Part shown: in pieces, positions 1-59,492 of the stretch
How the letters are laid out: the number at the start of each line of letters is the position of its first letter
Numbering within the stretch: position 1 is the first letter of the stretch
Source of the DNA: Candidatus Shapirobacteria bacterium
GTDB taxonomy: Bacteria > Patescibacteriota > Microgenomatia > UBA12405
DNA: 64,000 nucleotides
Direction of reading: 5' to 3'
NCBI GenBank assembly: GCA_041661765.1
Contig: JBAZTV010000001.1
Span: forward strand, 71,755-135,754
Notes under the pieces: generated by a model
Told to the model about the DNA's origin: nothing
The model's database searches: none
Seen by the model: the letters and a program-made list of their open reading frames with translations, nothing else
Program-made: the position numbers and the translations under genes

Positions 1-834
1 TGTCGCCGGACTATAACCAATCGCTACAAACAACCCATCCAATGGCAATATTCTTTCTTCATTGGCCTTATTATTCAAAACACTAACCGACTCTAATTTT
101 TCCTGGTTTTGCCCTTCTTTTTCAAGGGAGGGTGCCCACGCCACTGCGGGGATGGGCGGGTTTATATCCTTTACTTCTGAATTCCATAAAATCTCTATTT
201 TTTCATTTTCCAATACCTTTTTTTGTTCCGCCGCACTAGCTCTAAATTCTTCTTTTCTAACAATCATAAAAACTTTTTTAGTAAATTTCGCCAAAAATAC
301 AGCATCTTCACAAGCTGTATCTCCACCTCCCACCACTGCCACTGTTTTATCTCTAAAAAACATTCCATCACAAGTAGCACAACTACTTATTCCATATCCA
401 ATTAATTCTTTCTCTTTTGGCAGACCTAACCATTTTACTCCCGCTCCGGTAGCCACAATCACAGTTTTGCTTTGTAAAACCTCTCCACTTTCCAACTCTA
501 AAAAAAAGTCGCCCCTATCAAGGGGAGATGTCGATTCATCGACAGAGGGGTTTGTTCTTTGAATTTGACGAACAATTCCAGATTTAATCTCTACCCCCAA
601 TTTTTTTACCTGAGTTTGAGTATCCATCATCAATTTAAAACCACCAACTCCATCTGGAAATCCCGGATAATTTTCTACCATTGGAGTGATTGTCAATTGA
701 CCCCCCGGTTGATTTCCAGCAATCACAATCGTTTTAATATCCGCTCTCGCATGATAAATTGCTGCTGTTAACCCGGCTGGTCCTGAACCGATAACTACAC
801 AATCATATTTTATATTTTCATTCATACCCATCAT
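1..834 (-). CDS. trxB: Thioredoxin-disulfide reductase (partial; C-terminus runs off the window start)
   Basis: Manual minus-strand translation gives MMGMNENIKYDCVVIGSGPAGLTAAIYHARADIK..., the CATCDG redox-active site and a second GGGDTACEDA NAD(P)-binding motif. No stop codon before position 1. Two repeat-element copies lie in-frame inside it. Confidence 0.85.
   Translation of the reverse strand, partial: MMGMNENIKYDCVVIGSGPAGLTAAIYHARADIKTIVIAGNQPGGQLTITPMVENYPGFPDGVGGFKLMMDTQTQVKKLGVEIKSGIVRQIQRTNPSVDESTSPLDRGDFFLELESGEVLQSKTVIVATGAGVKWLGLPKEKELIGYGISSCATCDGMFFRDKTVAVVGGGDTACEDAVFLAKFTKKVFMIVRKEEFRASAAEQKKVLENEKIEILWNSEVKDINPPIPAVAWAPSLEKEGQNQEKLESVSVLNNKANEERILPLDGLFVAIGYSPAT
111..163 (+). 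repeat. Double-hairpin element copy 1 (degenerate), in-frame inside trxB
   Basis: gcccttctttttcaagggaggg...gggcgggttt. Encodes NPPIPAVAWAPSLEKEG in TrxB. Confidence 0.6.
511..553 (+). repeat. Double-hairpin element copy 2, in-frame inside trxB
   Basis: gcccctatcaaggggag + atgtcgattcatcgacag + aggggttt. Encodes NPSVDESTSPLDRG. Confidence 0.75.
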
Positions 835-883
835 TCTATCAAAAGAGCTTTACTTTTTTAATTTTTTAATTAATACTTAAATA

Positions 884-1804
884 ATGTCCAAGAAAACTCA
901 CCAAGTTGTAAAATTAATTTTTGATCTCATTCAAAATAAACACAATTTTATTTTTTGGGTAGGAATTCGTTTTCTTTCTACTTTCTTACCCTTAGTCACT
1001 ATTTATTTGTTTTCAAAAACCATTAATTTGGTTGAAATTAAATCAGATTTTTCCGCCATCTTTTTTTCCATTCTAATTATTTTTACTGTCAGAATTTTTG
1101 ATAACTTTGTTCGCATTAAATCTGTAACCAAATTAGATGAGTGTATTAGTGATATTAATTTTGATATTCATAACTATTTTATTAAAGATATTAAAAACGA
1201 AACCAAATTAGAAAGACATGAAAGCATTCAAACCATTCGTAATTTTGCCGATGCTACTGCTTGGACTTTAAGGCTTTTTCGCCAACCAGGAATTGATAGT
1301 TTTGTTTCCCTATTTACCATTCCTTTTATTATCCTTTTTGTAGATTTTAAAGTTTTTATTTTAGAAATTGTCTATATTACCGTCTATTATTTCATCGACC
1401 ACTACACCACTCAACGCTACATTAATTTTAAAGATATCCAAAATACTAAAATTGAAAGTTATTATGCCAAACTTCATGAAACTAACGATGTTGATCTTGA
1501 ACAAAAAACTTTTAGTCGTAATTTTGCTCGCCTTTGTAATTGGTGTTTCACTGAATGGTTCACTCTCCAAAACACCGCCGTTTTCTTTTACACTCTAATC
1601 TTTGCTTATTTAATAATTTCTGTTTCCAGTGGTACAAAATTAATTTCAGATTTAGTTTTAATTATGAGCTATATCGCCTCAACTCAAGTTTATTTAAATT
1701 CCTTTTCTGAAATTAAAGATAGTCTCGCTGATATGTCTGTTTCGGTTGACCACATTGCTAAAAATAAATCCATCACCGCCATCGACTTCGACGATTTAGT
1801 ATAA
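884..1804 (+). CDS. Hypothetical polytopic membrane protein (possibly ABC-exporter transmembrane-domain-like)
   Basis: 306-aa ORF with about 6 hydrophobic segments. No recognisable catalytic motif. Confidence 0.4.
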   Translation: MSKKTHQVVKLIFDLIQNKHNFIFWVGIRFLSTFLPLVTIYLFSKTINLVEIKSDFSAIFFSILIIFTVRIFDNFVRIKSVTKLDECISDINFDIHNYFIKDIKNETKLERHESIQTIRNFADATAWTLRLFRQPGIDSFVSLFTIPFIILFVDFKVFILEIVYITVYYFIDHYTTQRYINFKDIQNTKIESYYAKLHETNDVDLEQKTFSRNFARLCNWCFTEWFTLQNTAVFFYTLIFAYLIISVSSGTKLISDLVLIMSYIASTQVYLNSFSEIKDSLADMSVSVDHIAKNKSITAIDFDDLV

Positions 1805-1810
1805 TAAATT

Positions 1811-2686
1811 ATGCCAGAACTTCCCGAAGTTGAAGTTGTCCGTCTTTTTCTCAACCAACATCTAATTAATAAAACCATTTCTAATTTAGAAATTCTTACT
1901 CCAAAATCTTTTATTGGCGATCCCAAATTAGTTCAAGGCCAAAAAATAATTAAAACTTCTCGCATTGGCAAACAACTTTCTCTTCACTTAGAAAATAATT
2001 TAATTCTTCTTTTTCATCTCAAAATGACCGGCCAATTGATTTTTTATCCTCCCTTGTCAAGGGGAGGTCCCGAAAGGGGAGGGGTTTCGCTTGGTCATCC
2101 CACTCCCAAAGAAGATAAATCAATCTTACCCAACAAATCAACTCGTCTCGTTTTCACTTTTTCTAATGGTTCGAAATTATTTTTTAACGATCAGCGCAAA
2201 TTTGGCTGGGTCAAGCTTTTTAATCAGGATGAACTTGCCGAAGCCCAAAAAAATCTCGGTCTCGACATTTTAAGCCCAAACTTCACTCCTGAATATTTTT
2301 ACCAGCAAATCCAAAATACTTCCCGTCCAATCAAAATAGTTTTACTCGACCAAACCAAATTTGCTGGCATTGGTAATATTTATGCCAACGATTCTCTTTT
2401 TTTGACTAAAATTAATCCACAAACACCCTCAAATAAAATTAACTTTAAAAAAGCTTCACTTCTACACCATTTTCTAATTCAAATTATGACTGAGTCAATT
2501 AAAGCTGGTGGCTCCACTGCCAAAGATAATAAATACATCCACCCCGACGGTTCCAGTGGTCAGCACCAATTTAATTTTCAAGTTTACCAACGAGCCGGCG
2601 AACCTTGTTTAGTTTGTCAAACCCCAATTAAGCGAATCACTCTCGGTGGTCGTGGTACCTTCTATTGCCCCAATTGTCAGAGATAA
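1811..2686 (+). CDS. mutM: Formamidopyrimidine-DNA glycosylase (Fpg/MutM)
   Basis: N-terminal MPELPEVE with catalytic Pro2/Glu3, and a C-terminal zinc finger CLVCQTPI...YCPNCQ. Carries an in-frame repeat-element insertion (PPLSRGGPERGGVS) in a loop. Confidence 0.9.
   Translation: MPELPEVEVVRLFLNQHLINKTISNLEILTPKSFIGDPKLVQGQKIIKTSRIGKQLSLHLENNLILLFHLKMTGQLIFYPPLSRGGPERGGVSLGHPTPKEDKSILPNKSTRLVFTFSNGSKLFFNDQRKFGWVKLFNQDELAEAQKNLGLDILSPNFTPEYFYQQIQNTSRPIKIVLLDQTKFAGIGNIYANDSLFLTKINPQTPSNKINFKKASLLHHFLIQIMTESIKAGGSTAKDNKYIHPDGSSGQHQFNFQVYQRAGEPCLVCQTPIKRITLGGRGTFYCPNCQR
2048..2088 (+). repeat. Double-hairpin element copy 3, in-frame inside mutM
   Basis: cctcccttgtcaaggggagg + tcccgaaagggga + ggggtttc. 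Confidence 0.8.
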
Positions 2687-2926
2687 TTTCATTTTTATTT
2701 TTATTAAAAAAAACGATCCATTTTTAACAGATTACAAATCCTATAATATTGACAAATAAACATTTTTTGTTAAAATCTCCCCATTAATTCAATTTCTCTA
2801 ATTAATACAAGCATTAATTAACAAGATTTGTTTAATAGTGTACTTTAAAATTTGTGTGACCTTCTATAAAAATCCAAGAGTTTTTAACTCTTTTATATAA
2901 AAAAACAATTCAATATTAAGAAAGGT

Positions 2927-3664
2927 GTGATTTTGTTGAACGGCAAAAAACCTATATACAAACCTTCTTTTTTTAAGCGATGGGAAAAAACTTGTTTTCA
3001 ATCATCTGAGATTATTATTCCGATTGTGTTAAAAATTCTCGGAAATATATCTTCGGTGGTAGACATGGGGTGTGGAACAGGGCCTTGGCTTTCAGTCTTT
3101 AATAGTTACGGAATAACTGATTTCACAGGTATTGACGGTGACTATGTTAATGAAGATGCGTTAGTTATTACTAAAGAACATTTCAAAGCATATGATCTTA
3201 ATAAACCTCTTGATCTTAGAAGAACTTTTGACTTAGTAGTTTCTTTGGAAGTTGCAGAACATCTCTATCCGCAAAACAGTGAGACTTTTGTAAAAACTTT
3301 AATAAAACATGGGTCAATTATTCTCTTTTCTGCTGCTATACCTTTTCAAGGTGGAACCCATCATTTTAATGAACAATATCAGGATTATTGGTCTGAGATT
3401 TTTAAAAAAAACGGTTACTTTGCAATTGATTGCATTAGACCAAAAATTTGGGACAATAAATCTGTTTACTGGTGGTACAGACAAAATATTATCCTATATA
3501 TTAAAAAGGAAACTATCGAAAATAACGATACATTAAAAGAACTTTACAAGGAGACAAATTCCTTATTAAATCGTGTTCATCCACAAAATTATTTAACTAG
3601 GATTTGTCAAACAATCAAATTTTCACCAGTTCTGGAGTTTGTAAAATTTTTTATCAGCAGATAG
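2927..3664 (+). CDS. Class I SAM-dependent methyltransferase
   Basis: Motif I VVDMGCGTGPW. GTG start preceded by an AAAGG ribosome-binding site. 245 aa. Confidence 0.65.
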   Translation: MILLNGKKPIYKPSFFKRWEKTCFQSSEIIIPIVLKILGNISSVVDMGCGTGPWLSVFNSYGITDFTGIDGDYVNEDALVITKEHFKAYDLNKPLDLRRTFDLVVSLEVAEHLYPQNSETFVKTLIKHGSIILFSAAIPFQGGTHHFNEQYQDYWSEIFKKNGYFAIDCIRPKIWDNKSVYWWYRQNIILYIKKETIENNDTLKELYKETNSLLNRVHPQNYLTRICQTIKFSPVLEFVKFFISR

Positions 3665-3689
3665 AAATAGAAGATCAACAAATTAAACT

Positions 3690-3730
3690 AAGCCGTAGGG
3701 TTAACTTTTAACACCTTACGGCTTTTTCTT
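3690..3730 (+). terminator. Rho-independent terminator downstream of the methyltransferase gene
   Basis: Stem AGCCGTAGGG ... CCTTACGGCT with a 14-nt loop, followed by TTTTTCTT. Confidence 0.6.
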
Positions 3731-3751
3731 GTTATTTTTTTATTTTAATTC

Positions 3752-3780
3752 TTGACAACCTTTCTATATCGGACTAAAAT
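3752..3780 (+). promoter_or_regulatory. Sigma70-like promoter for the iscRS-iscU operon
   Basis: TTGACA (3752-3757), a 17-nt spacer, then TAAAAT (3775-3780). Sits 9 nt upstream of the ATG at 3789. Confidence 0.5.
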
Positions 3781-3788
3781 AGTCCAGT

Positions 3789-5318
3789 ATGAATTTATCA
3801 ACTAAATCTCGCTATGGACTTCGCGCTCTGACCAATCTTCTTGATCAAGACTGTTGTTGTTCCATCAAACAGATTTCCAAAAAAGAACATATTTCTTCCG
3901 ATTATTTAGAAAAAATTTTTGCCAAATTAAAAAAAGCCGGTCTCTTGAAAGTTGAAAGGGGAGCTTGTGGTGGCTACTCTCTCAGTCGTGACCCCAAAAA
4001 AATTACCCTAGGCGAAGTCATTAATGCTCTCGAAAAACCAGAATTCATTTGTCCTGATTTTTGTGATTGTCAAAGCAAATCAGTTTGGCAAAAAATTCAA
4101 TCTGGATTCAGTCATGTTTTAAATTCTATTACTCTCGATCAATTAGCTGTTTCCAAAAATAAATCAGTTTATCTTGACTATGCCGCTTCCACTCCTGTCG
4201 ACCCCGAAGTTTTAAATACCATGCTTCCTTATTTTGATTTTTCTTTTTGTGGCAACACCATGTCTCTCCATCAAATGGGAAGTGTCGCTTCCCAAGTTGT
4301 CGAATCTTGTCGTCAATCCTTTGCTAATATTTTAAAAGTTCAGTCATCTGAAATTATTTTTACTGGCTCGGCCACCGAAAGTAATAATACTGTTTTAAAA
4401 GGGATTGCTTTTGCCAACAAAAATAAAGGTAAACACATTATTATTTCTTCAATTGAACATGATTGTGTCTTAAACAGTGCTAAATGGTTAGAAACTCAAG
4501 GTTTTGAAATCAGTCAAATTTCTGTCGATAAATTTGGTCTCTTAAATTTAGATGAGCTTAAAAAAACCATTCGCCCCGACACCATTTTGGTCTCTATTAT
4601 TCATGGCAATAATGAAATAGGCACAATTCAAGATCTCGCCAGCATCGGCCAAATTTGTCATGATCGCGGAGTTTATTTTCACACCGACGCTTCTCAAAGT
4701 TTTACTAAAACCGACATTGATTTATCTAAGTTAAACGTCGATCTCTTAACCGCTTCTTCTCATAAAATTTACGGTCCAAAAGGCGCAGCTCTTCTTTATA
4801 TTAAAACTGGTACCAAAATTACCCCGCTTCTTCATGGTGGCGGTCATGAATTTGGTCTCCGTTCCTCGACTGTTAATCTACCTGCCGTTGTTGGTTTTAC
4901 TAAAGCCGCCGAAATTGCCATTAAAAATTTTGATCAAGAAAATAAAAAGTTATGTGAACTTCGCGATTATTTAATTAAAAATATTTTAAAATCAATTTCC
5001 GATTCTCATCTCAATGGTCACCCCACTAAACGTCTTTCCAATAATATTAATATTTCTTTTACTCGAGTCGAAGGAGAGTCCCTTCTTTTAGAATTAGATT
5101 TTTATGGCATCGCTGTCTCTACTGGTTCCGCTTGCTCTTCGGCCTCTCTGGAACTCAGCCACGTTCTTTTGGCTATTGGTCTTAAACCTGAACAATCACA
5201 TGGTTCCCTACGTTTTAGTCTTGGTCGTTTTACCACTAAATCCGAAGTGGATTACCTGTTAAAAGTTTTACCTCAAGTTGTTAATAAATTTAGGCAAATT
5301 TCGCCATTTAAATCATAA
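3789..5318 (+). CDS. iscS: Fusion protein: N-terminal Rrf2/IscR-type transcriptional regulator domain plus cysteine desulfurase (IscS/NifS)
   Basis: Residues 1-130 carry the Rrf2 signature (TKSRYGLRAL...GGYSL) and three clustered Cys (CPDFCDC). The remainder carries the PLP-lysine motif SSHKIYGPKGAALLY and the C-terminal GSACSS...LRFSLGRFTT typical of IscS. One continuous 509-aa ORF. Confidence 0.8.
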   Translation: MNLSTKSRYGLRALTNLLDQDCCCSIKQISKKEHISSDYLEKIFAKLKKAGLLKVERGACGGYSLSRDPKKITLGEVINALEKPEFICPDFCDCQSKSVWQKIQSGFSHVLNSITLDQLAVSKNKSVYLDYAASTPVDPEVLNTMLPYFDFSFCGNTMSLHQMGSVASQVVESCRQSFANILKVQSSEIIFTGSATESNNTVLKGIAFANKNKGKHIIISSIEHDCVLNSAKWLETQGFEISQISVDKFGLLNLDELKKTIRPDTILVSIIHGNNEIGTIQDLASIGQICHDRGVYFHTDASQSFTKTDIDLSKLNVDLLTASSHKIYGPKGAALLYIKTGTKITPLLHGGGHEFGLRSSTVNLPAVVGFTKAAEIAIKNFDQENKKLCELRDYLIKNILKSISDSHLNGHPTKRLSNNINISFTRVEGESLLLELDFYGIAVSTGSACSSASLELSHVLLAIGLKPEQSHGSLRFSLGRFTTKSEVDYLLKVLPQVVNKFRQISPFKS

Positions 5319-5320
5319 TT

Positions 5321-5773
5321 ATGTATACCCAAAAAGTTCTCGAACACTTCAGAAATCCTCACAATTTTGGTTCCATGGAAAACCCCACCGCTGTCGGTCA
5401 AGTTGGAAATCTTGCCTGTGGTGATGTCATGAAACTTTATTTAAAAATCGATAAAAACAAAAAAGGGGAAGATTACATTCAAGACATTAAATTTGAAACT
5501 CTTGGTTGTGCTGCTGCCATTGCCACCAGCAGTATTGTCACCGATTTAGCCAAAAATAAAACTTTAACCGAAGCCTTAAAGATAAAAAACGAAGATATTA
5601 TTAAAGCTCTCGACGATTTACCTGCCGTCAAAATTCATTGTTCTTTATTAGCCGCTGATGCTTTAGACGAAGCAATTTATGAGTTTTATCAAAAAACCAA
5701 TCAACCCATCTCTCCTGAGTTAGAAAAGCTTCATCACCGCATCACCGTTTGTCAAACTCGTTTAAACCATTAA
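5321..5773 (+). CDS. iscU: Fe-S cluster assembly scaffold IscU/NifU-like
   Basis: GNLACGDVMKLYL, FETLGCAAAIATSS and HCS motifs, giving the three conserved Cys of the scaffold. Immediately follows iscS. Confidence 0.85.
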   Translation: MYTQKVLEHFRNPHNFGSMENPTAVGQVGNLACGDVMKLYLKIDKNKKGEDYIQDIKFETLGCAAAIATSSIVTDLAKNKTLTEALKIKNEDIIKALDDLPAVKIHCSLLAADALDEAIYEFYQKTNQPISPELEKLHHRITVCQTRLNH

Positions 5774-5791
5774 ATATTGATAAAATAAATT

Positions 5792-6250
5792 ATGTTTTTA
5801 GTCAAAACCGTTTATGCTCAATGTCCTGTCTGCATCGTCACTGTTGGTGGGGGAATGTTTTTAGCCCAAAAACTAGGCGTCGATGATTTTTTGGTTTCTC
5901 TTTGGATTTCTGGACTCAATACTGCCATTTCTTTTTGGTTGGCCCCCAAAATTAAAAATCGAATTTTAGGTAGCCCAATTATTTTTTCTTTATTAATGTT
6001 TGGTTTTACTCTTTTTTATTTTATTTCTACTGGTCAAACAGGTTATTCTACTAATAAGATTCTTGGTTTAGATAAAATTATTTTTGGCCAAAGCTTAGGT
6101 CTTTTAATTATGTTTTTGGGTATTTTTATTGATCGTCATTCCCGTAAATTAAATGGTGGTAAAATTCTTTTTCCTTACCAAAAAGTCGTCTTTCCTGTCG
6201 GCACTTTAATCATTTTTACTTTACTTTTTAAATTATTATTTAAATTATAA
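5792..6250 (+). CDS. Hypothetical small membrane protein
   Basis: 152 aa with 3-4 hydrophobic helices. Co-directional with the isc genes. Confidence 0.4.
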   Translation: MFLVKTVYAQCPVCIVTVGGGMFLAQKLGVDDFLVSLWISGLNTAISFWLAPKIKNRILGSPIIFSLLMFGFTLFYFISTGQTGYSTNKILGLDKIIFGQSLGLLIMFLGIFIDRHSRKLNGGKILFPYQKVVFPVGTLIIFTLLFKLLFKL

Positions 6251-6255
6251 ATTAA

Positions 6256-6305
6256 ACTCTCTTTTTTTTAAAGGGAGATACCCCGCTTCGCGGGACGGAG
6301 GGTTT
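6256..6305 (+). repeat. Double-hairpin element copy 4, intergenic; its 3' GGAGGGTTTT abuts the ATG at 6307
   Basis: ...aagggagat + accccgcttcgcggga + cggagggtttt ATG. Confidence 0.6.
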
Positions 6306-6306
6306 T

Positions 6307-6852
6307 ATGAACAACAAAGAAATCGAAAAATTCATTAATAAAACTAAAGAATTAGAAAAAGGTCATCAATTAGATCTTTCTTCTGGAGAAGATTTATCAA
6401 TTGCCATCATGAATCTTATCGGTATTGAAGAACACATGTTTTTTACTTCCCAAAAATTGGACGACATTAAATATCTCAATATTCTAAATTCAGCCAGGGA
6501 AATGAGAAAAGAATTAATGAAAAAAATCGTCAAAGAAGGTCATGGTGAAGTTTGGTGTACTAGTAAACATCTTTTATCTGCCTCCATGCGTCTCATGGAA
6601 GTTGGCACAAAAAGTTTAACCAAAGGTGACCAAAAAGAAGCCAATGATTATTTCAAAAAATCTTTTGATTTATATAATCTTTTTTGGGGTTTAAATTTAG
6701 GTTTAATAGATTCCTCTATGGAAACACACCATGGCGCGTCTCTACTTCCTAAAAAAAACATACCTGTCAAAGAAAAACCCATTCCTCAAAAAAGCCTAAT
6801 GGGAACTATTAGCCAAACTATCGGTAAGATTCTTGATTGTTGTCGTGAATAA
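6307..6852 (+). CDS. Hypothetical protein
   Basis: 181-aa ORF. The upstream repeat element supplies GGAGGG 6 nt before the ATG. Confidence 0.4.
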   Translation: MNNKEIEKFINKTKELEKGHQLDLSSGEDLSIAIMNLIGIEEHMFFTSQKLDDIKYLNILNSAREMRKELMKKIVKEGHGEVWCTSKHLLSASMRLMEVGTKSLTKGDQKEANDYFKKSFDLYNLFWGLNLGLIDSSMETHHGASLLPKKNIPVKEKPIPQKSLMGTISQTIGKILDCCRE

Positions 6853-7251
6853 CTAATCTCTAAAGATCAATAATATTCCCACAAAAACAAAAGTAATTGG
6901 CCAAAACATATCCCAGTCAATCATTTTTGGAAATATTTGATTCCATAAAGCTGTTAATCCTACTAAGATTAATACTACGCCTAGAATATTAATTCTCTTT
7001 CCTTTTATTTTTTTATCCTGCCTTGCAGAAATTTCTTTTGTCATTGATTTCTCTTTTTCCTTTTCAGTTTCTTTTGGAATCACTAACCATAAAATTAAAT
7101 AAATCAAAAGTCCACTTCCACCACCAATTGCCAATAAAATAAAAATAATTCTAACCAATGATCCGTCAATTTGAAAATACTCAGCCAATCCACCGCAAAC
7201 ACCAGCAATTATATTATTATCGACTGATCTAAATAATTTTTTTGTCTCCAT
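6853..7251 (-). CDS. PspC-domain membrane protein
   Basis: N-terminal IIAGVCGGLAEYFQIDGSLVRIIFILLAI matches the PspC domain. A TM helix and a second TM follow. Confidence 0.7.
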   Translation of the reverse strand: METKKLFRSVDNNIIAGVCGGLAEYFQIDGSLVRIIFILLAIGGGSGLLIYLILWLVIPKETEKEKEKSMTKEISARQDKKIKGKRINILGVVLILVGLTALWNQIFPKMIDWDMFWPITFVFVGILLIFRD

Positions 7252-7253
7252 TA

Positions 7254-7907
7254 TTAGATTCTAGCAATTTCTCTAATCTTTTCAATATTCTTAATCACCA
7301 TCGTTCTTTTTTTATTATAAAGATATCCTTGTTTTTGAAATTTCAAAATTTGTAAAGTTACAGTTTCTCGAGTCAATCCAGCCATACTAGCCAAAACCCG
7401 GTGTGGAGTATTGAATTTAATTACAATTTCATTACCTTTTTTTTCACCCACATCTTTAGCAATCAAGCAGATCAATCCCGCCACTTTACTTTCTGCATCT
7501 CCTGCCACAATTTGTCGCCAACTAATAGATAAATCAAGTAGTTCATCTATTAATTTTTTATTAACCTCACGTAATATGTTTTCGTCTTTCTCAATAAATT
7601 TTACAAACTCATTCATTGGCACTGCCCAAAGTTCCACCGCTGTTATTGCCTCGACAAAATATCTATTTGGTTTTTTATGAAGCCCATTTATTCCAGCACA
7701 AAAAAACAATGGTCTTAAATTCGGAAGACTTGTTTCCTTCTCACCATTAACCACATAAGCTCTTAAAAACCCGCTTTTTTCTATATAAGCCGTATTTAAA
7801 TTCTCTCCCGATCTAAACAAAACTTGTCCCTTTTTATATTTAATTACATCAAACTGGCTAAAAAATGACTCTAACTGTTTCCTAATTTTATCGTTCATAA
7901 AGTACAA
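7254..7907 (-). CDS. Crp/Fnr-family transcriptional regulator
   Basis: cNMP-binding beta-roll region plus a C-terminal HTH (RETVTLQILKFQKQGYL). 217 aa. Confidence 0.7.
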   Translation of the reverse strand: MYFMNDKIRKQLESFFSQFDVIKYKKGQVLFRSGENLNTAYIEKSGFLRAYVVNGEKETSLPNLRPLFFCAGINGLHKKPNRYFVEAITAVELWAVPMNEFVKFIEKDENILREVNKKLIDELLDLSISWRQIVAGDAESKVAGLICLIAKDVGEKKGNEIVIKFNTPHRVLASMAGLTRETVTLQILKFQKQGYLYNKKRTMVIKNIEKIREIARI

Positions 7908-8037
7908 AACTATTAATTATTAAAAAATTATTAAATTTTTATTAAAAGATAATAAAATTTATTATATCACTAAGTTTTTCTAATATTTCTTACTAATTTT
8001 TAATAATTTTTTAATAATTAAGTTATAATATGAGCCT

Positions 8038-8652
8038 GTGGTTAAAAAAATGGAATTTCTTAATCCAAATTTGGATTTAAATATACCTCTAAAGTCAGAT
8101 AGTGTTACCCCAATTCTTGAGGCTGCTAATCAATTAAAGGAAAAAATAGATCAAGCCGAAAAAAGAGCTAAGAAAGCAGAAGAAGAAAATGTTGTAGATT
8201 CTTTAACTGGTTGTTATAATCGAAATTTTTTTGAAAAATTTAAACAAGAAAACTTTGATCCCAATCGTGATAATAATAAAATTGGTTTAGTTTTTGTTGA
8301 TGTTAATAATTTAAAAACTGTTAACGATAATCAAGGCCATGAAGCTGGTGATAATTTAATTAAAAATACTGCTAATTTTTTGAAATCAAATTCCAGAAAA
8401 GAGGATTTAGTTGTTCGTATTGGCGGCGATGAATTTATAATTATTTGTCGTAACCATGATAACACTCCTAATTTTGAAGAAAAAATCCTCAATAGAATAA
8501 AAGAGAGATTAATTGACAATCCAAACAAAGATCTTGCTTTTGGTGTTGCTGTTTACAATAAAGAACAAGATTTTTCTAACCTAGATAAAACTAAAGATCG
8601 TGCCGACACTCACATGTATCAAAACAAAAGAGATATGAAGGCTGAAATGTAA
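8038..8652 (+). CDS. GGDEF-domain diguanylate cyclase
   Basis: LTGCYNRNFF, FVDVNNLKTVNDNQGHEAGD and RIGGDEF motifs. Stand-alone, without a sensor domain. Confidence 0.85.
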   Translation: MVKKMEFLNPNLDLNIPLKSDSVTPILEAANQLKEKIDQAEKRAKKAEEENVVDSLTGCYNRNFFEKFKQENFDPNRDNNKIGLVFVDVNNLKTVNDNQGHEAGDNLIKNTANFLKSNSRKEDLVVRIGGDEFIIICRNHDNTPNFEEKILNRIKERLIDNPNKDLAFGVAVYNKEQDFSNLDKTKDRADTHMYQNKRDMKAEM

Positions 8653-8685
8653 CTTTTCACTAACACTTGAGTTTATAATACTATT

Positions 8686-10437: not shown

Positions 10438-10443
10438 AATTTT

Positions 10444-10992
10444 TTATTTTTCTTTAAATTTTCCCTCAAATCTCTCCACCAAAGAATAACAACAACCACA
10501 AAATATTTGCTTGTAAAAACCTTTAGTTTCTAATTTTTTACAAATATTTTGTGGCACCAAAAATTCAATTCCTACTTTTTCTCCAATTTCTTTTCCAATC
10601 TTTTCAATCATTTCCGAATTTTGATATTCGCTGGTCAACAGTGTCGAACTAAAAGCCTCAAATCCATTTTTTTTAGCAAACTCCGCTGTCCTTTCCAGCC
10701 TCAACCTCCAACATCTCTCACATCTTTTAGGTTTTAAAAAGTCCCTCTTGTCAAAGAGGGATTTAGGGAGATTGGTTTCAAACCATTCTCTTGGTCTCCA
10801 ATCCGCCACTATCATTTTCAAATCACCAATCATCAATTGCATTGCCTTTAACCTCGATTGATATTCCGATCTTGGGTGAATGTTCGGATTGTAATAATAA
10901 ACTACAATTTCACTAAATCTTTTTTCCAACTTAATTGATTCCACTATTTTTAATAAACAATCAGCACAGCAAGCATGTATTAACAATTTCAT
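10444..10992 (-). CDS. queH: Epoxyqueuosine reductase QueH (DUF208)
   Basis: N-terminal LLIHACCADC, YYYNPNIHPRSEY, and C-terminal Cys pairs (CERCW, CGCC). Carries an in-frame repeat-element insertion. Confidence 0.6.
   Translation of the reverse strand: MKLLIHACCADCLLKIVESIKLEKRFSEIVVYYYNPNIHPRSEYQSRLKAMQLMIGDLKMIVADWRPREWFETNLPKSLFDKRDFLKPKRCERCWRLRLERTAEFAKKNGFEAFSSTLLTSEYQNSEMIEKIGKEIGEKVGIEFLVPQNICKKLETKGFYKQIFCGCCYSLVERFEGKFKEK
10741..10780 (+). repeat. Double-hairpin element copy 5, in-frame inside queH (minus-strand gene)
   Basis: gtccctcttgtcaaagaggga + tttagggagattggtttc. Confidence 0.65.
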
Positions 10993-11015
10993 AAAATATT
11001 TTAAATTTAAAATTA

Positions 11016-11058
11016 AACCCTCCCTGTCAAGGGAGGGTGCCCGCAGGGCGGGTGGGTT
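11016..11058 (+). repeat. Double-hairpin element copy 6, intergenic, directly abutting the tyrS stop codon
   Basis: aaaccctccctgtcaagggaggg + tgcccgcagggcggg + tgggtttt. Confidence 0.8.
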
Positions 11059-12234
11059 TTATTTCCCCAAAAACTCTTTCATTTTTTCCAAACTCCCTTT
11101 CACTTTTGGTTCTTCAAAATGTTTCCTGGCCGGTTCCAATTTTTCAATCAACCAATCCGCTAATCCATTTTTCAAATCCAATGGATATAATTTTTCATTT
11201 TTATAATCCTCAATTAATTCATCCACTTTAGTGTAGACAATATCTCCACCAAATTTTTCTGGTCGGCTGATTTTAAAATTACCTGTTTTTTCTCCCCAAA
11301 ACACCAAAGTTTGCACCCAATTAATTAATGGATTAAATTCAATTTCTTTTGGTGGTCCGTAAGCTTTTTTAATCTTATTTCTAATTTCATCTGGCGTGTC
11401 ATGAATAAAAATCGCACTATTGGGTTTTGATTTGCTCATTTTCAAAGATTCTTCCAACAAAATTTTATCTCCACTTTCTGTAGTCAAATTTTTACCATCT
11501 TCTGTCAATAAACCAAAACCTTCATTTGAATTTTCCGGTCCAGTTAATCCCGCAATCAAATTTTGATGAATTGCCACTGGGGCAATAATTTCCCCTTTAC
11601 TATTTTTTAATGGATTAATGGTCAATTTTTTAGCCACATCTCTGGCAATTACATGAGCTTTTCTTTGATCCATTCCCGCATGAGCCAAATTAACCTGCAT
11701 CGTAAAAATATCTGCCACCTGGAGTGGGGGGTAAAACAAAGTTGCCATATCCACATCGTTACCTTCCTTTTTGCCCATTATCGAAATTGATCTTAAATTT
11801 CTCGACAAAGTCACATGTTTACCCACTTCCATAAAAGTTTCCCAGTGAACAAAATTTTTCTCATACAAATCTTTACCAGTCACAAATTCTACTTGATTTT
11901 CATTCACCCCATAACACTTTAAAGAGGCGATTAACCCTTCTTTAAAATAATGTTCGGTTGCCCAGCGGATATTTTCCCAATTTCCGCCCAATTTATTATT
12001 TAAATAAGAATGAAAATCAGCTAAAAATATTTTACATTTAACTCCTGCTTTTAAAAAATCAGCAATCTTTCCCATTGAAATCAAGCCAGTTCCCAAATGT
12101 ACCATTCCTGATATTTCAAACCCAATATAATGATTTAATACAGTTCCGTTTTCTAGTAATTTTTTCAAATCGTCTTCAGTTAATACTTCCTGACAATTAC
12201 GGGTGATTAATTTAATTTTTTCATTTATCTCCAT
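11059..12234 (-). CDS. tyrS: Tyrosyl-tRNA synthetase, archaeal/eukaryotic type
   Basis: YIGFEISGMVHLG (HIGH region), KMSKS, and C-terminal RPEKFGGD...LEPARK. Closely parallels archaeal TyrRS, e.g. M. jannaschii. Confidence 0.85.
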   Translation of the reverse strand: MEINEKIKLITRNCQEVLTEDDLKKLLENGTVLNHYIGFEISGMVHLGTGLISMGKIADFLKAGVKCKIFLADFHSYLNNKLGGNWENIRWATEHYFKEGLIASLKCYGVNENQVEFVTGKDLYEKNFVHWETFMEVGKHVTLSRNLRSISIMGKKEGNDVDMATLFYPPLQVADIFTMQVNLAHAGMDQRKAHVIARDVAKKLTINPLKNSKGEIIAPVAIHQNLIAGLTGPENSNEGFGLLTEDGKNLTTESGDKILLEESLKMSKSKPNSAIFIHDTPDEIRNKIKKAYGPPKEIEFNPLINWVQTLVFWGEKTGNFKISRPEKFGGDIVYTKVDELIEDYKNEKLYPLDLKNGLADWLIEKLEPARKHFEEPKVKGSLEKMKEFLGK

Positions 12235-13809: not shown

Positions 13810-14472
13810 CTAAAATTTTCCAGTTCCAAAGATCAAGCAAGTTGCCAATCCATCCACCCCAATTCCCACATAATTCCATCTATTATCCAACTGATTGTCG
13901 TTATGAGGTTTATCGCCGGCATACATCCATTCAATCACATGAACCCCATTTAATTTAAATCCATAACTAATATTTTCTCCCAAAGCTGTAAATCCTAATT
14001 TATTAAAACCATCCTGATTTTCAATAAAATCACTAAAACCTTTATGTTGATCCACTGATTTTAATCCGTTTAAATATTTTGCCCTTTCTTGGGCATAATT
14101 ACTCAGTTTTTCATCCAAAGTTAAAATTTGTGAACCTTGTACTTTCCGATATTCATTCAAAGCCACCAATATTTCCTTTGCCGTCGCCATAGTTGCATCT
14201 TCACCTATTTTCATTGTCCAAGTCACCTCATCTATTTGTTTTGCCACCCCCCATGGCTCAGTCCCTCCCTTTTCAAGGGAGGGTGTCCGTAGGACGGGTG
14301 GGTTTTGACTCTCAATAGTTGTTATTGTGGGTTTTGGAATTATAGTGGGTTTCGATGTCAGCGTCGGTATTTTTTCTAAAACCGGTGCCAAAGCTTCTTC
14401 TTTTTGAACCAAAACAAATCCCAAAATTTCCAACAATAAAACCATTAATACTATTCTTACAATTCTCTCCAT
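13810..14472 (-). CDS. Secreted CAP/SCP/PR1-domain protein
   Basis: Signal peptide. CAP-domain signatures (HKGFSDFIEN, GENISYGF, WMYAGDKPHNDNQLDNRWNYVGIGV). In-frame repeat-element insertion in the N-terminal linker. Confidence 0.7.
   Translation of the reverse strand: MERIVRIVLMVLLLEILGFVLVQKEEALAPVLEKIPTLTSKPTIIPKPTITTIESQNPPVLRTPSLEKGGTEPWGVAKQIDEVTWTMKIGEDATMATAKEILVALNEYRKVQGSQILTLDEKLSNYAQERAKYLNGLKSVDQHKGFSDFIENQDGFNKLGFTALGENISYGFKLNGVHVIEWMYAGDKPHNDNQLDNRWNYVGIGVDGLATCLIFGTGKF
14262..14307 (+). repeat. Double-hairpin element copy 7, in-frame inside the CAP-domain gene
   Basis: tccctcccttttcaagggaggg + tgtccgtaggacggg + tgggtttt. Confidence 0.8.
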
Positions 14473-49985: not shown

Positions 49986-50477
49986 TTATATCTTAATTTT
50001 ATCAATAATTAGGCTTGTCGATTGATGTGGAATTGATTTACTTACCTCTAATACTTTTGCCCCAACCTCATTAGCTTGTTTCATTTTTTTTTCCAAATTA
50101 TTATCATTTTCACTAACAGCAATTATTTCTGGTTTTAATTTTTTAATTATTTCTAAATATTCCTCATCGTTTTTCATTTCTGGTAATTTAATTACATAAT
50201 CTACCATTTTCAATTTAGTCAAAAAAACAGCCCTATTTTCTTGATTGTTTATCGGTCTATTTTGTCCTTTATTTTTTTTAATATTTTCATCCGATTCTAA
50301 AAGTACTATTAATATATCTCCCTTTGCTTTTGCTTTTTCCAAAAAAATCAAATGACCCAAATGAACAATATCAAAACACCCCCCAACCAATACAATCTTT
50401 AAAGCCGCCCTGTCAAGGGAGGTGATTTCGATTTTATCGAAATCGGAGGGTTTTTTCATATTAATTATATTTTTCAT
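49986..50477 (-). CDS. Cytidylyltransferase-like nucleotidyltransferase (TagD/RibL/NMNAT-like)
   Basis: GGCFDIVHLGH ((H/T)xGH Rossmann nucleotidyltransferase motif). The N-terminal 20 codons are encoded by a repeat element. Confidence 0.6.
   Translation of the reverse strand: MKNIINMKKPSDFDKIEITSLDRAALKIVLVGGCFDIVHLGHLIFLEKAKAKGDILIVLLESDENIKKNKGQNRPINNQENRAVFLTKLKMVDYVIKLPEMKNDEEYLEIIKKLKPEIIAVSENDNNLEKKMKQANEVGAKVLEVSKSIPHQSTSLIIDKIKI
50404..50454 (+). repeat. Double-hairpin element copy 8, encodes the N-terminal 20 aa of the nucleotidyltransferase ORF
   Basis: gccgccctgtcaagggagg + tgatttcgattttatcgaaatcgga + gggtttttt. Confidence 0.75.
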
Positions 50478-52687: not shown

Positions 52688-52710
52688 AATTAAATGTTTA
52701 AAATAAATCG

Positions 52711-52757
52711 CCCTGTCAAGGGAGATGTCCTCCGAAATTTCGGAGGACAGAGGGTTT
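52711..52757 (+). repeat. Double-hairpin element copy 9, between the response-regulator and histidine-kinase genes
   Basis: gccctgtcaagggag + atgtcctccgaaatttcggaggacag + agggttt. Confidence 0.75.
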
Positions 52758-52768
52758 AATACAAAAAT

Positions 52769-59169: not shown

Positions 59170-59242
59170 ATAAACTTTACATATACGTAAAATTCGTCTA
59201 ATATTAATTTGTTAGTTATTTTACAAAGGGAGGTGTATTTTA

Positions 59243-59443
59243 ATGAAAAAAAGTCCTTTATATGTTTTTTGTCTCATTCTTATCATCGTCGGTGGACTCA
59301 ATTGGGGTTTAATTGGTCTTTTTAATTATGATCTTGTCGCCATGATTTTTGGAAATATGTCCTTTTTATCTCGACTAGTTTATGACCTCGTCGGTTTATC
59401 AGCGGTTTATATTCTATTTTTTCTTTTTAGCGACAAAAAATAA
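59243..59443 (+). CDS. DUF378-family small membrane protein
   Basis: GGLNWGLIGLFNYDLV motif. 66 aa. Strong ribosome-binding site AAGGGAGG 8 nt upstream. Confidence 0.65.
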   Translation: MKKSPLYVFCLILIIVGGLNWGLIGLFNYDLVAMIFGNMSFLSRLVYDLVGLSAVYILFFLFSDKK

Positions 59444-59450
59444 AAAAAAC

Positions 59451-59492
59451 TCCCCCGGTCCCTCCTTGTCCAAGGAGGGACTTAGGGTTGAT
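59451..59492 (+). repeat. Double-hairpin element copy 11 between convergent genes (DUF378 and patatin)
   Basis: tcccccggtccctccttgtccaaggaggga + cttagggttgatttt. Confidence 0.7.

What the first reader, a model, noticed from the sequence alone, without database searches (positions are those of the whole stretch)
111..59492. All element copies are in the same orientation on the + strand regardless of host-gene strand
Elements inside minus-strand genes (trxB, queH, CAP, nucleotidyltransferase) and inside plus-strand genes (mutM) all read CCCT..TCAAGGG...GGGTTT on the + strand. Either the element is tolerated in frame in both orientations, encoding P-L-S-R-G-G-type versus P-S-L-E-K-G-G-type peptides. 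Or insertion orientation is biased, by replication strand or by target-site/insertion mechanism. Eleven of eleven in one orientation is unlikely by chance (about 1 in 1000).
Basis: seen in the sequence. Interest (0 to 1): 0.55.

Follow-up and report, generated by a model that had tools for sequence, protein, structure and literature searches.

The report
Strand-locked triple-helix DNA repeats in Patescibacteria
A short GC-rich repeat scattered through this Candidatus Shapirobacteria genome, even in frame inside genes on either strand, has three covarying segments that fit a DNA triple helix, and it nearly always points the same way relative to the strand asymmetry (GC skew) used here as a proxy for replication direction.

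Summary
A covariance model finds 10 copies in the window, all on the + strand: 7 strong and 3 weak, one of which (59458-59498) is nearly symmetric. No independent minus-strand copy exists, and two more + copies lie just left of the window.

Copies sit in frame in minus-strand genes (trxB twice, CAP, queH, a cytidylyltransferase N-terminus), in plus-strand mutM, and between genes. Close relatives have empty trxB and mutM sites (33, 45 and 51 nt net).

Orientation follows GC skew, not gene strand. In unrelated loci from other Patescibacteria, 50 of 54 single copies (21 of 23 genomes) have the G-rich reading on the C-rich (lagging) strand. In mutM-syntenic loci 42 of 43 do, split 16:14 between host-gene strands.

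The anatomy is pyrimidine arm, NTCA loop, purine arm, variable hairpin or 2-3 nt loop, then a mirror-image purine arm and TTT. The third arm covaries with the second by the purine-motif triplex code. That is the architecture of E. coli BoxC/PIT/TM_ECO intrastrand-triplex repeats, which are intergenic and show no strand bias.

Verdict: a new variant of a known kind. The cause of the bias (strand-specific gain or loss at the replication fork) is inferred, not shown.

The parts
111..167 (+). Copy c111, inside trxB (minus strand). Read through in frame as NPPIPAVAWAPSLEKEGQ. Long form with a hairpin in loop 2.
   Evidence: CM 48.7 bits. In-frame translation. 51-nt gap in relatives L129 and L131. 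Third-strand code met at 7 of 8 positions.
508..557 (+). Copy c508, inside trxB (minus strand). Read as NPSVDESTSPLDRGD. Parse: TCGCCCCT-ATCA-AGGGGAGA-[hairpin]-AGAGGGGT-TT.
   Evidence: CM 53.2 bits. 45-nt gap in L129. Third-strand code met at 8 of 8 positions, with a G opposite A in the Y arm.
2046..2091 (+). Copy c2046, inside mutM (plus strand). Read as YPPLSRGGPERGGVS.
   Evidence: CM 47.9 bits. Orthologues at 85-88% identity lack it. 33-nt net insert against L129 and L131. The insert lies between two beta strands in a region of low pLDDT.
6255..6309 (+). Copy c6255, a degenerate long form between two plus-strand genes. Its third arm GGAGGG sits 5 nt before the ATG at 6307 and can serve as that gene's Shine-Dalgarno sequence.
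   Evidence: CM 19.8 bits. 52-nt gap in L129 and L131, where the two genes abut (TAAATG) and the downstream N-terminus differs.
10741..10782 (+). Copy c10741, short BoxC-like form (loop 2 = TTT), inside queH (minus strand). Parse: TCCCTCTT-GTCA-AAGAGGGA-TTT-AGGGAGAT.
   Evidence: CM 20.7 bits. 8 of 8 perfect triads. QueH matches Pfam profile positions 1-173 with residues 3-171, so there is no net length gain. Insertion status is open.
11016..11063 (+). Copy c11016, intergenic between the stop of a class Ib aminoacyl-tRNA synthetase gene (11059-12234, minus) and the start of queH (10992, minus). Parse: CCCTCCCT-GTCA-AGGGAGGG-[hairpin]-GGGTGGGT.
   Evidence: Best CM hit, 60.7 bits. 8 of 8 triads, with T.A-T at the A positions.
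14261..14309 (+). Copy c14261, inside a CAP-domain protein gene (13810-14472, minus), in the N-terminal linker. Read as SQNPPVLRTPSLEKGGT.
   Evidence: CM 51.7 bits. The CAP domain covers residues 104-206 and the element residues 55-71.
50402..50457 (+). Copy c50402, at the extreme 5' end of a cytidylyltransferase-like gene (49986-50477, minus). It encodes residues 7-26, ahead of the domain that starts at residue 30.
   Evidence: CM 49.4 bits. Pfam PF01467 covers residues 30-157. The gene caller's 163-aa product includes the element.
52705..52761 (+). Copy c52705, intergenic between the response-regulator and histidine-kinase genes (both plus strand). Parse: TCGCCCT-GTCA-AGGGAGA-[9-bp hairpin]-AGAGGGT.
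   Evidence: CM 51.3 bits. Fold z-score -4.3. Third-strand code met at 7 of 7 positions.
59458..59498 (.). Copy c59458, short form between convergent genes. Nearly symmetric, so its orientation is ambiguous (+ slightly favoured).
   Evidence: CM 16.9 bits on + against 14.9 bits on -. The triplex finder hits both strands.
1..831 (-). trxB, host gene of two copies. It runs about 200 nt beyond the window start. 343 aa here against 312 aa in relative L129.
1811..2686 (+). mutM (fpg), host gene on the plus strand. 291 aa against 280 aa in insert-free orthologues.

Best explanation
The repeat is a Patescibacteria family of BoxC/PIT (TM_ECO)-type 'class II' intrastrand-triplex DNA elements.

Read on its G-rich strand, the element is:
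- a 7-9 nt pyrimidine arm (Y, e.g. CCCTCCCT or TCGCCCT);
- a 4-nt loop (NTCA);
- the complementary purine arm (R, AGGG...);
- loop 2, which is either 2-3 nt or, usually, a variable 12-27 nt hairpin;
- a second purine arm (R') that is the mirror image of R;
- TTT.

As single-stranded DNA, Y and R can form a hairpin. R' can then lie antiparallel to R in the major groove through G.G-C, A.A-T and T.A-T triplets.

The element is a DNA-level feature, not an RNA or protein signal. It occurs between genes and in frame within genes on either strand, adding 11-17 residue Gly/Pro/Ser/Arg-rich loops.

Its orientation is locked to the replication fork. The G-rich, triplex-competent strand is almost always the lagging (C-rich) strand, which is the template of the leading strand.

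What is shown: the anatomy, the three-way covariation, the presence/absence polymorphism, independence from gene strand, and the association with GC skew.

What is inferred: that the cause is fork asymmetry acting on the folded single strand. My preferred version (about 0.35-0.4) is differential survival. Copies whose purine-motif strand lies on the lagging-strand template, which is transiently single-stranded, fold, stall synthesis and are deleted by slippage. Copies in the other orientation expose only the C-rich strand there, and its triplex needs protonated cytosine. Strand-specific gain at the fork is nearly as likely (see rivals).
For: Anatomy:
- The hp1 and hp2 helices are 90.7% paired over 101 distinct copies, against 71.7% in shuffles, with 262 double-sided changes against 83.5.
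- Third arm: in 88 distinct copies the uninterrupted run of valid R'.R contacts averages 6.94. Controls give 4.88 +/- 0.13 with permuted partners (maximum 5.32 in 1000), <=1.2 with register shifts, and 2.35 when read as a direct repeat.
- Where R has A, R' has A or T, which is the purine-motif rule quoted in PMC4666352.
- All 10 window copies satisfy the code at 6-8 positions.
- At the orthologous mutM site, AGGGGAGG/GGAGGGG in our genome corresponds to AGGGAAGG/GGAAGGG in L146.

Known class:
- TM_ECO is 5'-CCCTCNCCC-N3-6-GGGNGAGGG-N3-GGGNGAGGG. It forms a triplex in vitro, shows a recurrent G/A mismatch triplet, and occurs partly as inverted doublets. Our family has the same recurrent mismatch and doublets in some genomes.

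Orientation:
- Window: 9 clear + copies and 1 ambiguous, plus 2 more + copies in L001, with GC skew negative throughout.
- Independent loci with |skew|>=0.1: 50 of 54 single copies, 29 of 31 loci and 21 of 23 genomes.
- mutM-syntenic loci from about 20 populations: 42 of 43 on +, all with negative skew. Of these, 16 lie in same-strand ORFs, 14 in opposite-strand ORFs and 13 are intergenic.

Loss and gain:
- Empty sites in L129 and L131, and a patchy distribution among MutM orthologues.
- PIT elements block DNA polymerase in vitro and TM_ECO loci are deletion-prone, per PMC4666352.
- From established knowledge (not tested here): structure-prone repeats are lost preferentially from the lagging-strand template (Trinh and Sinden 1991).
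Against: - No triplex was measured here. Holder et al. could not detect the E. coli triplex in vivo.
- E. coli TM_ECO single copies show no replichore bias: 8 leading against 5 lagging, my count from their Table 1.
- Hairpin-less lookalikes in Betaproteobacteria lean the other way (8 of 9, weak unmasked skews). A universal purge of the G-rich strand from the lagging-strand template is therefore not supported.
- Inverted doublets, which contain both orientations, persist in some Patescibacteria (L035, L065, L017, L028, L049).
- GC skew is a proxy. No contig with a skew switch could be examined. About 7% of single copies are exceptions (L015, L066, one copy each in L104 and L101).
- Many mutM-syntenic copies are orthologous and so are not independent.
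Confidence: 0.7

Rival explanations
1. Strand-specific gain without a transposase. Single-stranded copies of the G-rich strand, stabilised by their fold, anneal through short terminal homologies to the exposed lagging-strand template. They are then built into the nascent lagging strand, as lagging-strand oligonucleotides are in recombineering. The orientation bias is set at insertion rather than by later loss.
For: - The direction fits: the G-rich strand is the lagging strand.
- No target-site duplication is seen, and the empty sites resemble one end of the element. Examples: AAAAGTCTCC against AAAAGTCGCCCC at trxB, AAAATCGCC at GT4, and GGAGATTTT against R'-TTT at mutM. In L140, L162, L164 and L152 the R' arm overlaps the pre-existing Gly-Asp-Phe codons.
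- No transposase Pfam appears among about 110 called genes in the loci read.
- The same sites are filled by different subfamilies in two genomes.
- Doublets of both orientations persist elsewhere, which argues against a simple purge.
Against: - Only five or so filled/empty pairs were examined, and microhomology in AT-rich flanks is easy to over-read.
- No source of single-stranded copies is known.
- The homologies are very short for annealing-based insertion of 33-57 nt.
- It does not explain why E. coli BoxC shows no bias.
Confidence: 0.3
2. The element is a non-autonomous hairpin element moved by an HUH (Y1) single-strand transposase, of the IS200/IS605 PATE or REP-RAYT/REPIN kind. It inserts into the lagging-strand template at the fork, which fixes its orientation.
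For: - From established knowledge (Ton-Hoang et al. 2010): IS608 and ISDra2 insert strand-specifically into the lagging-strand template, so their orientation follows replication.
- Our element is hairpin-based, follows skew, and forms REPIN-like inverted doublets in some genomes.
- The minus-strand loop reads TTGAC/TTGAT, which resembles the ISDra2 target TTGAT. This is a recalled resemblance only.
Against: - No Y1 transposase or any other transposase Pfam in the window or in about 100 kb of related loci. Whole genomes were not searched.
- No conserved 4-5 nt target next to the element in the empty sites.
- No GTAG/CGTC REP tag.
- The second hairpin varies in sequence, so it cannot be a sequence-specific recognition hairpin.
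- The model gives no reason for the mirror-image third arm.
- It requires the C-rich strand to be the active one.
Confidence: 0.15
3. Orientation is set by expression. The element works or is tolerated only in one orientation relative to transcription or translation, for example as a terminator, an RNA structure, a Shine-Dalgarno donor or a coded peptide. The + bias would then simply reflect gene orientation.
For: - A few copies place GGAGGG 5-9 nt before a same-strand start codon: c6255, and the exception L015.
- In-ORF copies show a strong reading-frame preference.
Against: - Copies keep the same absolute orientation in plus-strand and minus-strand genes. In the window, 3 sit in plus-gene contexts and 6 in minus-gene contexts. 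In syntenic loci the split is 16 same-strand to 14 opposite-strand hosts, all following skew.
- No Rfam match even at E<=1.
- Purine-motif triplexes do not form in RNA, per PMC4666352.
Confidence: 0.03
4. The uniform orientation is chance, or inherited synteny of a few old copies.
For: Only 9-12 copies in one 64-kb window with a single skew sign. Orthologous copies are shared among relatives.
Against: - Non-syntenic loci from 23 other genomes follow skew in 21 cases (p about 7e-5).
- Copies sit at many different sites, and close relatives have empty sites.
Confidence: 0.02

Closest known systems
BoxC / PIT elements / TM_ECO intrastrand-triplex repeats of E. coli and more than 260 proteobacterial genomes (Hoyne et al. 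2000; Holder et al. 2015, PMC4666352)
   Same: - Class II order on one strand: C-rich arm, short loop, G-rich arm, loop, second G-rich arm that obeys G.G-C, A.A-T and T.A-T.
- Similar arm sequences (CCCTCNCCC against CCCTCCCT).
- A recurrent G-opposite-A mismatch triplet.
- Multi-copy, no associated transposase, presence/absence polymorphism between close relatives.
- Inverted doublets in some genomes.
- Short forms here have loop 2 = TTT, TTA or TA, like TM_ECO type A (TTA).
   Different: - Loop 2 is usually a 12-27 nt hairpin of variable sequence.
- Loop 1 is a conserved NTCA, and the element ends in GGGTTT.
- About 70% of copies lie inside ORFs, in frame. TM_ECO is always intergenic.
- Orientation is about 93% locked to GC skew. 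E. coli shows 13+/10- by strand and 8/5 by replichore.
- The host is a roughly 31% GC Patescibacteria genome.
Rickettsia palindromic elements (RPE; Ogata et al. 2000), from established knowledge
   Same: - Selfish-looking palindromic repeats in a small, AT-rich genome.
- They insert in frame into protein-coding genes and are translated as extra surface loops.
- They are also found between genes.
   Different: - RPEs are 100-150 bp simple palindromes. Here the element is 40-57 nt with a three-arm mirror architecture.
- No sequence relationship was seen or tested.
- To my knowledge no replication-linked orientation bias is described for RPEs.
IS200/IS605-family elements and derivatives (PATEs; REP/REPIN with RAYT)
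   Same: - They act as folded single strands.
- IS608 and ISDra2 orientation follows replication direction.
- REPINs are inverted doublets.
   Different: - No HUH gene, target tetranucleotide or REP tag was found.
- The extra mirror arm is unexplained by that mechanism.
- Coding-region residence is not typical of these elements.
H-DNA-forming mirror repeats
   Same: Purine/pyrimidine mirror symmetry and the purine-motif triplet code.
   Different: H-DNA forms from one duplex mirror tract under supercoiling. Here all three arms are on one strand, with a Watson-Crick hairpin and a structured linker.

Membership tests
BoxC / PIT / TM_ECO class II intrastrand-triplex repeats | 5'-pyrimidine arm, loop, complementary purine arm, loop, reverse-Hoogsteen arm-3' on one strand, with G.G-C, A.A-T and T.A-T triplets | tested here: met
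   88 copies have a mean valid third-strand run of 6.94, against 4.88 with permuted partners and <=1.2 with register shifts. An independent finder gives 8 window loci against 0.07 expected.
BoxC / PIT / TM_ECO class II intrastrand-triplex repeats | Consensus CCCTCNCCC N3-6 GGGNGAGGG N3 GGGNGAGGG (9-nt arms; loop 2 of 3 nt, TTA or CCG) | tested here: not met
   Arms are 7-9 nt and related (CCCTCCCT/AGGGAGGG/GGGTGGGT in one subfamily). However, 8 of 10 window copies have a 10-23 nt hairpin-bearing loop 2. Only c10741 (TTT) and c59458 (ACTT) are short.
BoxC / PIT / TM_ECO class II intrastrand-triplex repeats | Always intergenic | tested here: not met
   6 of 10 window copies lie inside ORFs. 30 of 43 do in syntenic loci.
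BoxC / PIT / TM_ECO class II intrastrand-triplex repeats | No strand-orientation bias | tested here: not met
   50 of 54 single copies follow skew. E. coli gives 8 against 5 by replichore, from Table 1 of PMC4666352.
BoxC / PIT / TM_ECO class II intrastrand-triplex repeats | Recurrent mismatch triplet (G in the Y arm opposite A) and occasional inverted doublets | tested here: met
   43 of 101 rows are unpaired at alignment A4 columns 7/62. Doublets occur in L017, L028, L035, L049, L065 and L106, though none in the window.
BoxC / PIT / TM_ECO class II intrastrand-triplex repeats | Isolated G-rich strand forms a stable triplex (CD, NMR, UV melting) | not testable with these tools
   The folding tools model Watson-Crick pairs only.
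Rickettsia palindromic elements (RPE-like in-frame selfish DNA) | In-frame insertion into conserved protein-coding genes, with insert-free orthologues | tested here: met
   MutM 291 aa against 280 aa. trxB and mutM DNA gaps of 45, 51 and 33 nt.
Rickettsia palindromic elements (RPE-like in-frame selfish DNA) | 100-150 bp palindrome of the RPE sequence families | tested here: not met
   The elements are 40-57 nt. No RPE sequence comparison was run.
REP / REPIN with RAYT | 20-40 nt extragenic palindrome with a conserved GTAG or CGTC tag at one end | tested here: not met
   The aligned copies show no such tag; the 5' flanks are A-runs. Many copies are intragenic.
REP / REPIN with RAYT | Cognate RAYT (Y1 HUH) gene in the genome | not tested
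   Only the window and about 100 kb of related loci were annotated, and none was seen there. The rest of the 445-kb contig was not available.
IS200/IS605-derived PATE | Insertion 3' of a fixed tetra- or pentanucleotide target, without target-site duplication | tested here: inconclusive
   No duplication was seen, but five empty sites share no 4-5 nt motif next to the junction. The sample is too small.
IS200/IS605-derived PATE | Orientation coupled to replication direction | tested here: met
   This is an analogy of behaviour only.
MITE | Terminal inverted repeats plus target-site duplication | tested here: not met
   Apart from A-run and T-run flanks, there is no consistent duplication at the five junction pairs.
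Structured RNA family (Rfam) | Match to a curated covariance model | tested here: not met
   No hit at gathering score in the window other than a tRNA. No hit at E<=1 in 1-15000.

The most novel reading that the evidence does not exclude
The three-way covariation (Y, R and mirror R'), maintained across subfamilies and at orthologous sites inside essential genes, would be the first comparative-genomic evidence that a DNA triple helix is under selection in living cells.

The element may also propagate without any transposase. Its folded G-rich strand would be built into the nascent lagging strand at the fork. In some sites a pre-existing purine tract of the target (such as the GGAGAT-TTT of mutM) would serve as the third strand, so the target would be chosen by triplex or microhomology pairing.
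Probability: 0.2. Interest if true: 0.88.

Novelty: new variant of a known kind. Interest (0 to 1): 0.62.

Why it matters
BoxC/PIT triplex repeats have been known in E. coli since the 1990s. They have had no function, no mobility mechanism and no in vivo evidence that the triplex forms.

This Patescibacteria variant offers three new handles:
- A near-absolute orientation rule relative to the replication fork, which points to a single-stranded, fork-associated step.
- Three-strand covariation across dozens of genomes, an evolutionary readout of the fold.
- Frequent in-frame residence in housekeeping genes with empty alleles in close relatives. This makes gain and loss datable, and shows how streamlined CPR proteins acquire extra loops.

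The finding also shows that published triplex-motif surveys, which allow loops of 6 nt or less, miss a whole class with structured linkers.

Tried and rejected
- **Simple motif count.** TCAAGGG alone is not enriched (7 found against 5.7 expected). The signal is in the whole architecture.
- **Generic repeat finder.** It missed the family because the copies are short and gapped.
- **Loose two-hairpin descriptor.** It was swamped by G-U pairing on the G-rich strand and was replaced by the covariance model.
- **Known RNA family.** No Rfam match.
- **Intrinsic terminator.** The T-run does not follow a hairpin directly, and orientation ignores gene direction.
- **G-quadruplex.** Only some subfamilies have four G3 tracts. 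c52705, c508 and c50402 have two.
- **Integron attC.** No R'/R'' core sites and no cassette spacing.
- **General Shine-Dalgarno donor.** True for c6255 and a few others only.
- **Uptake-signal sequence.** Considered because Patescibacteria depend on DNA uptake. Nothing supports it, and uptake signals spread by point substitution, not by 33-57 nt insertions.
- **Literature.** Searches by sequence and by CPR/MITE terms found nothing on this element. The triplex search led to PMC4666352.
- **Orientation flip on one contig.** This failed. No locus contains a skew switch, and the 735-kb and 445-kb contigs were hidden as 'similar places'.
- **MutM structure model.** Only moderate quality (pLDDT 71). 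It says no more than that the insert lies in a poorly confident inter-strand loop.

Full report
**Setting.** The window is about 31% GC, with negative GC skew in every 4-kb window (-0.10 to -0.34). About 69% of its coding sequence is on the minus strand (ORF list). By the usual rule (leading strand G>C, with genes co-oriented with replication), the minus strand is the leading strand and the plus strand the lagging strand throughout. This is an inference.

The MutM protein is identical to a MAG protein on a 445,083-nt contig. The element-bearing relatives found in the genome collection are overwhelmingly labelled Candidatus Shapirobacteria or Patescibacteria.

**The observation.** Seven copies share CCCT-N-TCAAGGG ... 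GGGTTT. A covariance model built from them was run with filters off on both strands. It finds those seven (47.9-60.7 bits) plus three weaker + copies: 6255-6309, 10741-10782 and 59458-59498.

All minus-strand hits with E<0.1 overlap these palindromic copies. 59458-59498 is nearly symmetric (16.9 against 14.9 bits). A strand-neutral pattern hits 7 times in one orientation, against 0 expected. Two more + copies lie just left of the window in the same genome (L001), and none lie in the 7 kb beyond its right end.

**Gene context.**
- trxB (minus strand, running off the window start) reads through both of its copies in frame.
- mutM (plus strand) reads through its copy as YPPLSRGGPERGGVS.
- The CAP-domain gene, the cytidylyltransferase gene and queH (all minus strand) contain copies.
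- Four copies are intergenic.

MutM orthologues at 85-88% identity lack the insert, while others carry variant inserts at the same position. DNA alignments with the relatives L129 and L131 show net gaps of 33 nt (mutM), 45 nt and 51 nt (trxB). They show further empty sites upstream of the 5'-3' exonuclease gene, in the N-terminus of a GT4 glycosyltransferase, and between orf5792 and orf6307.

The queH copy adds no length relative to the Pfam profile, so it may not be a plain insertion. In a moderate AlphaFold model the MutM insert lies between two beta strands in a low-confidence stretch.

**Anatomy.** Each strand folds into two adjacent hairpins. Over 101 distinct copies from many genomes, both helices show compensatory changes. 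Pairing is 90.7% against 71.7% in shuffles, with 262 double-sided changes against 83.5, and all five scored hp2 pairs covary.

The new point is the segment between hp2 and TTT. It is the mirror image of the 3' arm of hairpin 1:
- AGGGAGA ... AGAGGGT
- AGGGAGG ... GGAGGGT
- AGGGAAA ... AAAGGGT
- AGGGAAGGGG ... GGGGAAGGGT
- AGGGAGGG ... GGGTGGGT

Opposite a G there is a G. Opposite an A there is an A or a T.

The uninterrupted run of such contacts averages 6.94 in 88 distinct copies. Controls give 4.88 +/- 0.13 with partners permuted (maximum 5.32 in 1000), at most 1.2 when the register is shifted, and 2.35 when read as a direct repeat. This is the triplet code of the antiparallel purine-motif triple helix.

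A finder written for pyrimidine arm / purine arm / mirror arm, with loop 2 allowed up to 36 nt, recovers 8 window loci against 0.07 expected. All ten window copies satisfy the code at 6-8 positions.

Short forms also occur, with loop 2 of 2-3 nt instead of a hairpin: c10741, c59458, L131:5758, L131:6752, and the mutM site in L164 and L159.

**What is known.** The architecture matches BoxC, also called PIT elements or TM_ECO. These are class II intrastrand-triplex repeats with consensus CCCTCNCCC-N3-6-GGGNGAGGG-N3-GGGNGAGGG, found 3610 times in 262 proteobacterial genomes (PMC4666352).

According to that paper:
- The isolated strand forms a stable triplex in vitro, but this was not detected in vivo.
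- The element is always intergenic in E. coli K-12 and shows no strand bias (13+/10-).
- It sometimes occurs as inverted doublets.
- It often carries one mismatched triplet (CCCTCGCCCC / GGGGAGAGGG).
- Purine-motif triplexes do not form in RNA.
- No function or mobility mechanism is known.

Our family shares the G-opposite-A mismatch (43 of 101 rows). It also shares doublets in some genomes. I found no paper on such elements in Patescibacteria and no Rfam family.

**Orientation across genomes.** Model R1 found real copies in Shapirobacteria, other Patescibacteria, and several MAGs whose labels look wrong.

Elements were masked and skew was measured over +/-3 kb. Among the 54 single copies in loci with |skew| >= 0.1, the G-rich reading lies on the C-rich strand in:
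- 50 of 54 copies;
- 29 of 31 loci;
- 21 of 23 genomes (p about 7e-5 by genome).

Twenty-two further copies form inverted doublets 10-60 nt apart, concentrated in a few genomes.

A second, protein-anchored sample covers MutM relatives from metagenomes, all oriented by mutM. It gave 42 + hits and one weak - hit after removing one duplicate contig. Local skew is negative everywhere. Of these hits, 16 lie in ORFs on the same strand, 14 in ORFs on the opposite strand, and 13 are intergenic. These loci are syntenic and partly orthologous, so they show constancy rather than independence.

Taken together, orientation follows the replication-associated strand asymmetry and ignores gene direction.

**Contrasts and limits.**
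- From Table 1 of PMC4666352 I placed the 13 single TM_ECO copies of MG1655 on the replichores: 8 on the leading strand and 5 on the lagging strand. That is no bias.
- Hairpin-less lookalikes in Betaproteobacteria (TCCCTCCCT-TTCA-AGGGGAGGG-N7-GGGGATGGGTTT) lean towards the G-rich strand in 8 of 9 single copies with |skew| >= 0.03. Those skews are weak and were not masked.
- No locus contained a skew switch, and the long contigs could not be fetched. The direct test of a flip at the origin and terminus is still to be done.
- Exceptions exist (L015, L066, and one copy each in L104 and L101). The L015 copy places its third arm as a Shine-Dalgarno sequence before a same-strand gene.

**How it may work.**

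Shown:
- a folded-strand architecture under covariation;
- gain/loss polymorphism;
- tolerance in both reading directions;
- orientation tied to skew.

Inferred: the relevant state is single-stranded DNA at the fork.

Two versions fit the direction of the bias. In the survival version, the purine-motif strand folds and blocks synthesis when it lies on the transiently single-stranded lagging-strand template, and is deleted. In the observed orientation only the C-rich strand is exposed there, and its triplex needs protonated cytosine. This rests on published polymerase blockage and deletion-proneness of PIT/TM_ECO, and on the known lagging-strand bias of structure-mediated deletion.

In the gain version, a folded G-rich single strand is built into the nascent lagging strand by annealing through short terminal homologies. 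The evidence that fits this version:
- the junctions lack target duplications;
- the empty sites resemble one end of the element;
- at the mutM site of L140, L162, L164 and L152 the third arm overlaps the pre-existing GGA GAT TTT codons.

The persistence of doublets and the lack of bias in E. coli weigh against a universal purge. The small number of junctions weighs against over-reading the microhomology.

An HUH-transposase mechanism of the IS608 type would also give replication-linked orientation. However, no such gene, target motif or REP tag was seen in the DNA available, and it gives no role to the mirror arm.

**Other evolutionary points.**
- Two sites (upstream of the exonuclease gene and in the GT4 N-terminus) are filled in our genome and in the more distant L131 by different subfamilies, one with and one without hp2. 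The closer L129 is empty at both.
- At the mutM site, our copy and that of L146 share the derived flank GTTTCGCTT but differ by matched changes in R and R'.
- In-ORF copies prefer one reading frame per orientation: antisense 22 of 23, sense 18 of 26. Orthologous copies were not removed from this count.

**Verdict.** The finding is real and its second interpretation is supported. The element is best filed as a new, hairpin-linked, gene-invading and replication-oriented variant of the BoxC/PIT intrastrand-triplex repeats. It is not a member of the TM_ECO consensus family in the strict sense.

Noticed in passing
window 6255-6312: The third arm of copy c6255 (GGAGGG) lies 5 nt before the ATG of orf6307. 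In relatives without the element the two genes abut (TAAATG) and the downstream protein has a different N-terminus (MTTP... against MNNK...). The insertion therefore seems to have re-made the translation start.
   Followed up: partly
window 14240-14262 and 50378-50404: ACCCCCC tracts 11-20 nt upstream of copies c14261 and c50402 create a weaker second pyrimidine/purine/mirror arrangement on the minus strand. This could be a remnant of a doublet or chance.
   Followed up: no
loci L023, L025, L026, L029, L031, L036, L037, L042, L063, L082, L086, L091, L095, L096, L098, L103, L105, L108, L113, L115, L119, L121, L127: A multi-copy, hairpin-less triplex/G4-like repeat, TCCCTCCCT-TTCA-AGGGGAGGG-N7-GGGGATGGGTTT. 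Most of these MAGs and isolates are labelled Betaproteobacteria (Undibacterium, Noviherbaspirillum, Herbaspirillum, Azonexus, Gallionella, Sulfuricella, Dechloromonas); a few are labelled Geobacter, Desulfuromonadales or only Pseudomonadota/Proteobacteria. It is often in inverted pairs. Its single copies lean towards the G-rich strand, opposite to the Patescibacteria family.
   Followed up: partly
loci L014, L019, L021, L068: Dehalococcoidia and delta-proteobacterial MAGs carry CCCCTCCCTT-ATCA-AGGGAAGGGG-ATAA-AGGGGAAGGGT. This is another short mirror-arm (class II triplex) repeat with the same NTCA loop.
   Followed up: no
loci L017, L028, L033, L049, L106 and L018, L041, L051, L055, L059, L074-L076, L078, L084, L104, L125: MAGs labelled 'uncultured Rhizobium sp.' (about 40% GC) and 'uncultured Gammaproteobacteria' (31-36% GC) carry this Patescibacteria element. 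The taxonomic labels look wrong.
   Followed up: no
alignment A3 (MutM orthologues P0013, P0046, P0022, P0032): Other in-frame insertions occur at different MutM positions in relatives: ARPELAEGVEG near residue 38, NLPAEALAKVG near residue 100, and a C-terminal YSRSVKGDARRTEGLI tail. Gene-internal insertions appear to be common in this lineage.
   Followed up: no
L001:2518-3187 against L129:6317-6937: Between the GT4 gene and trxB, our genome has a PIN-domain gene plus a small upstream ORF (toxin-antitoxin-like). The close relative has a peptidase S51 gene there instead. Relatives also carry TraG/TraC/PrgI-like conjugation or type IV secretion genes just upstream.
   Followed up: no
window 16041-18715 and 38965-40111: Long internal direct repeats (75-89% identity) lie inside two very large minus-strand genes: 1852 aa, and 1401 aa (subtilase plus fibronectin-III domains). 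No triplex element lies anywhere in the 36 kb between 14.3 and 50.4 kb.
   Followed up: no
in-ORF copies across loci: There is a strong reading-frame preference. Antisense copies are read as N-P...S/P-L-D/E-K/R-G in 22 of 23 cases; one of the other two frames contains TGA. Sense copies are read as P-L-S-R-G/E in 18 of 26 cases. Orthologous copies were not removed.
   Followed up: partly
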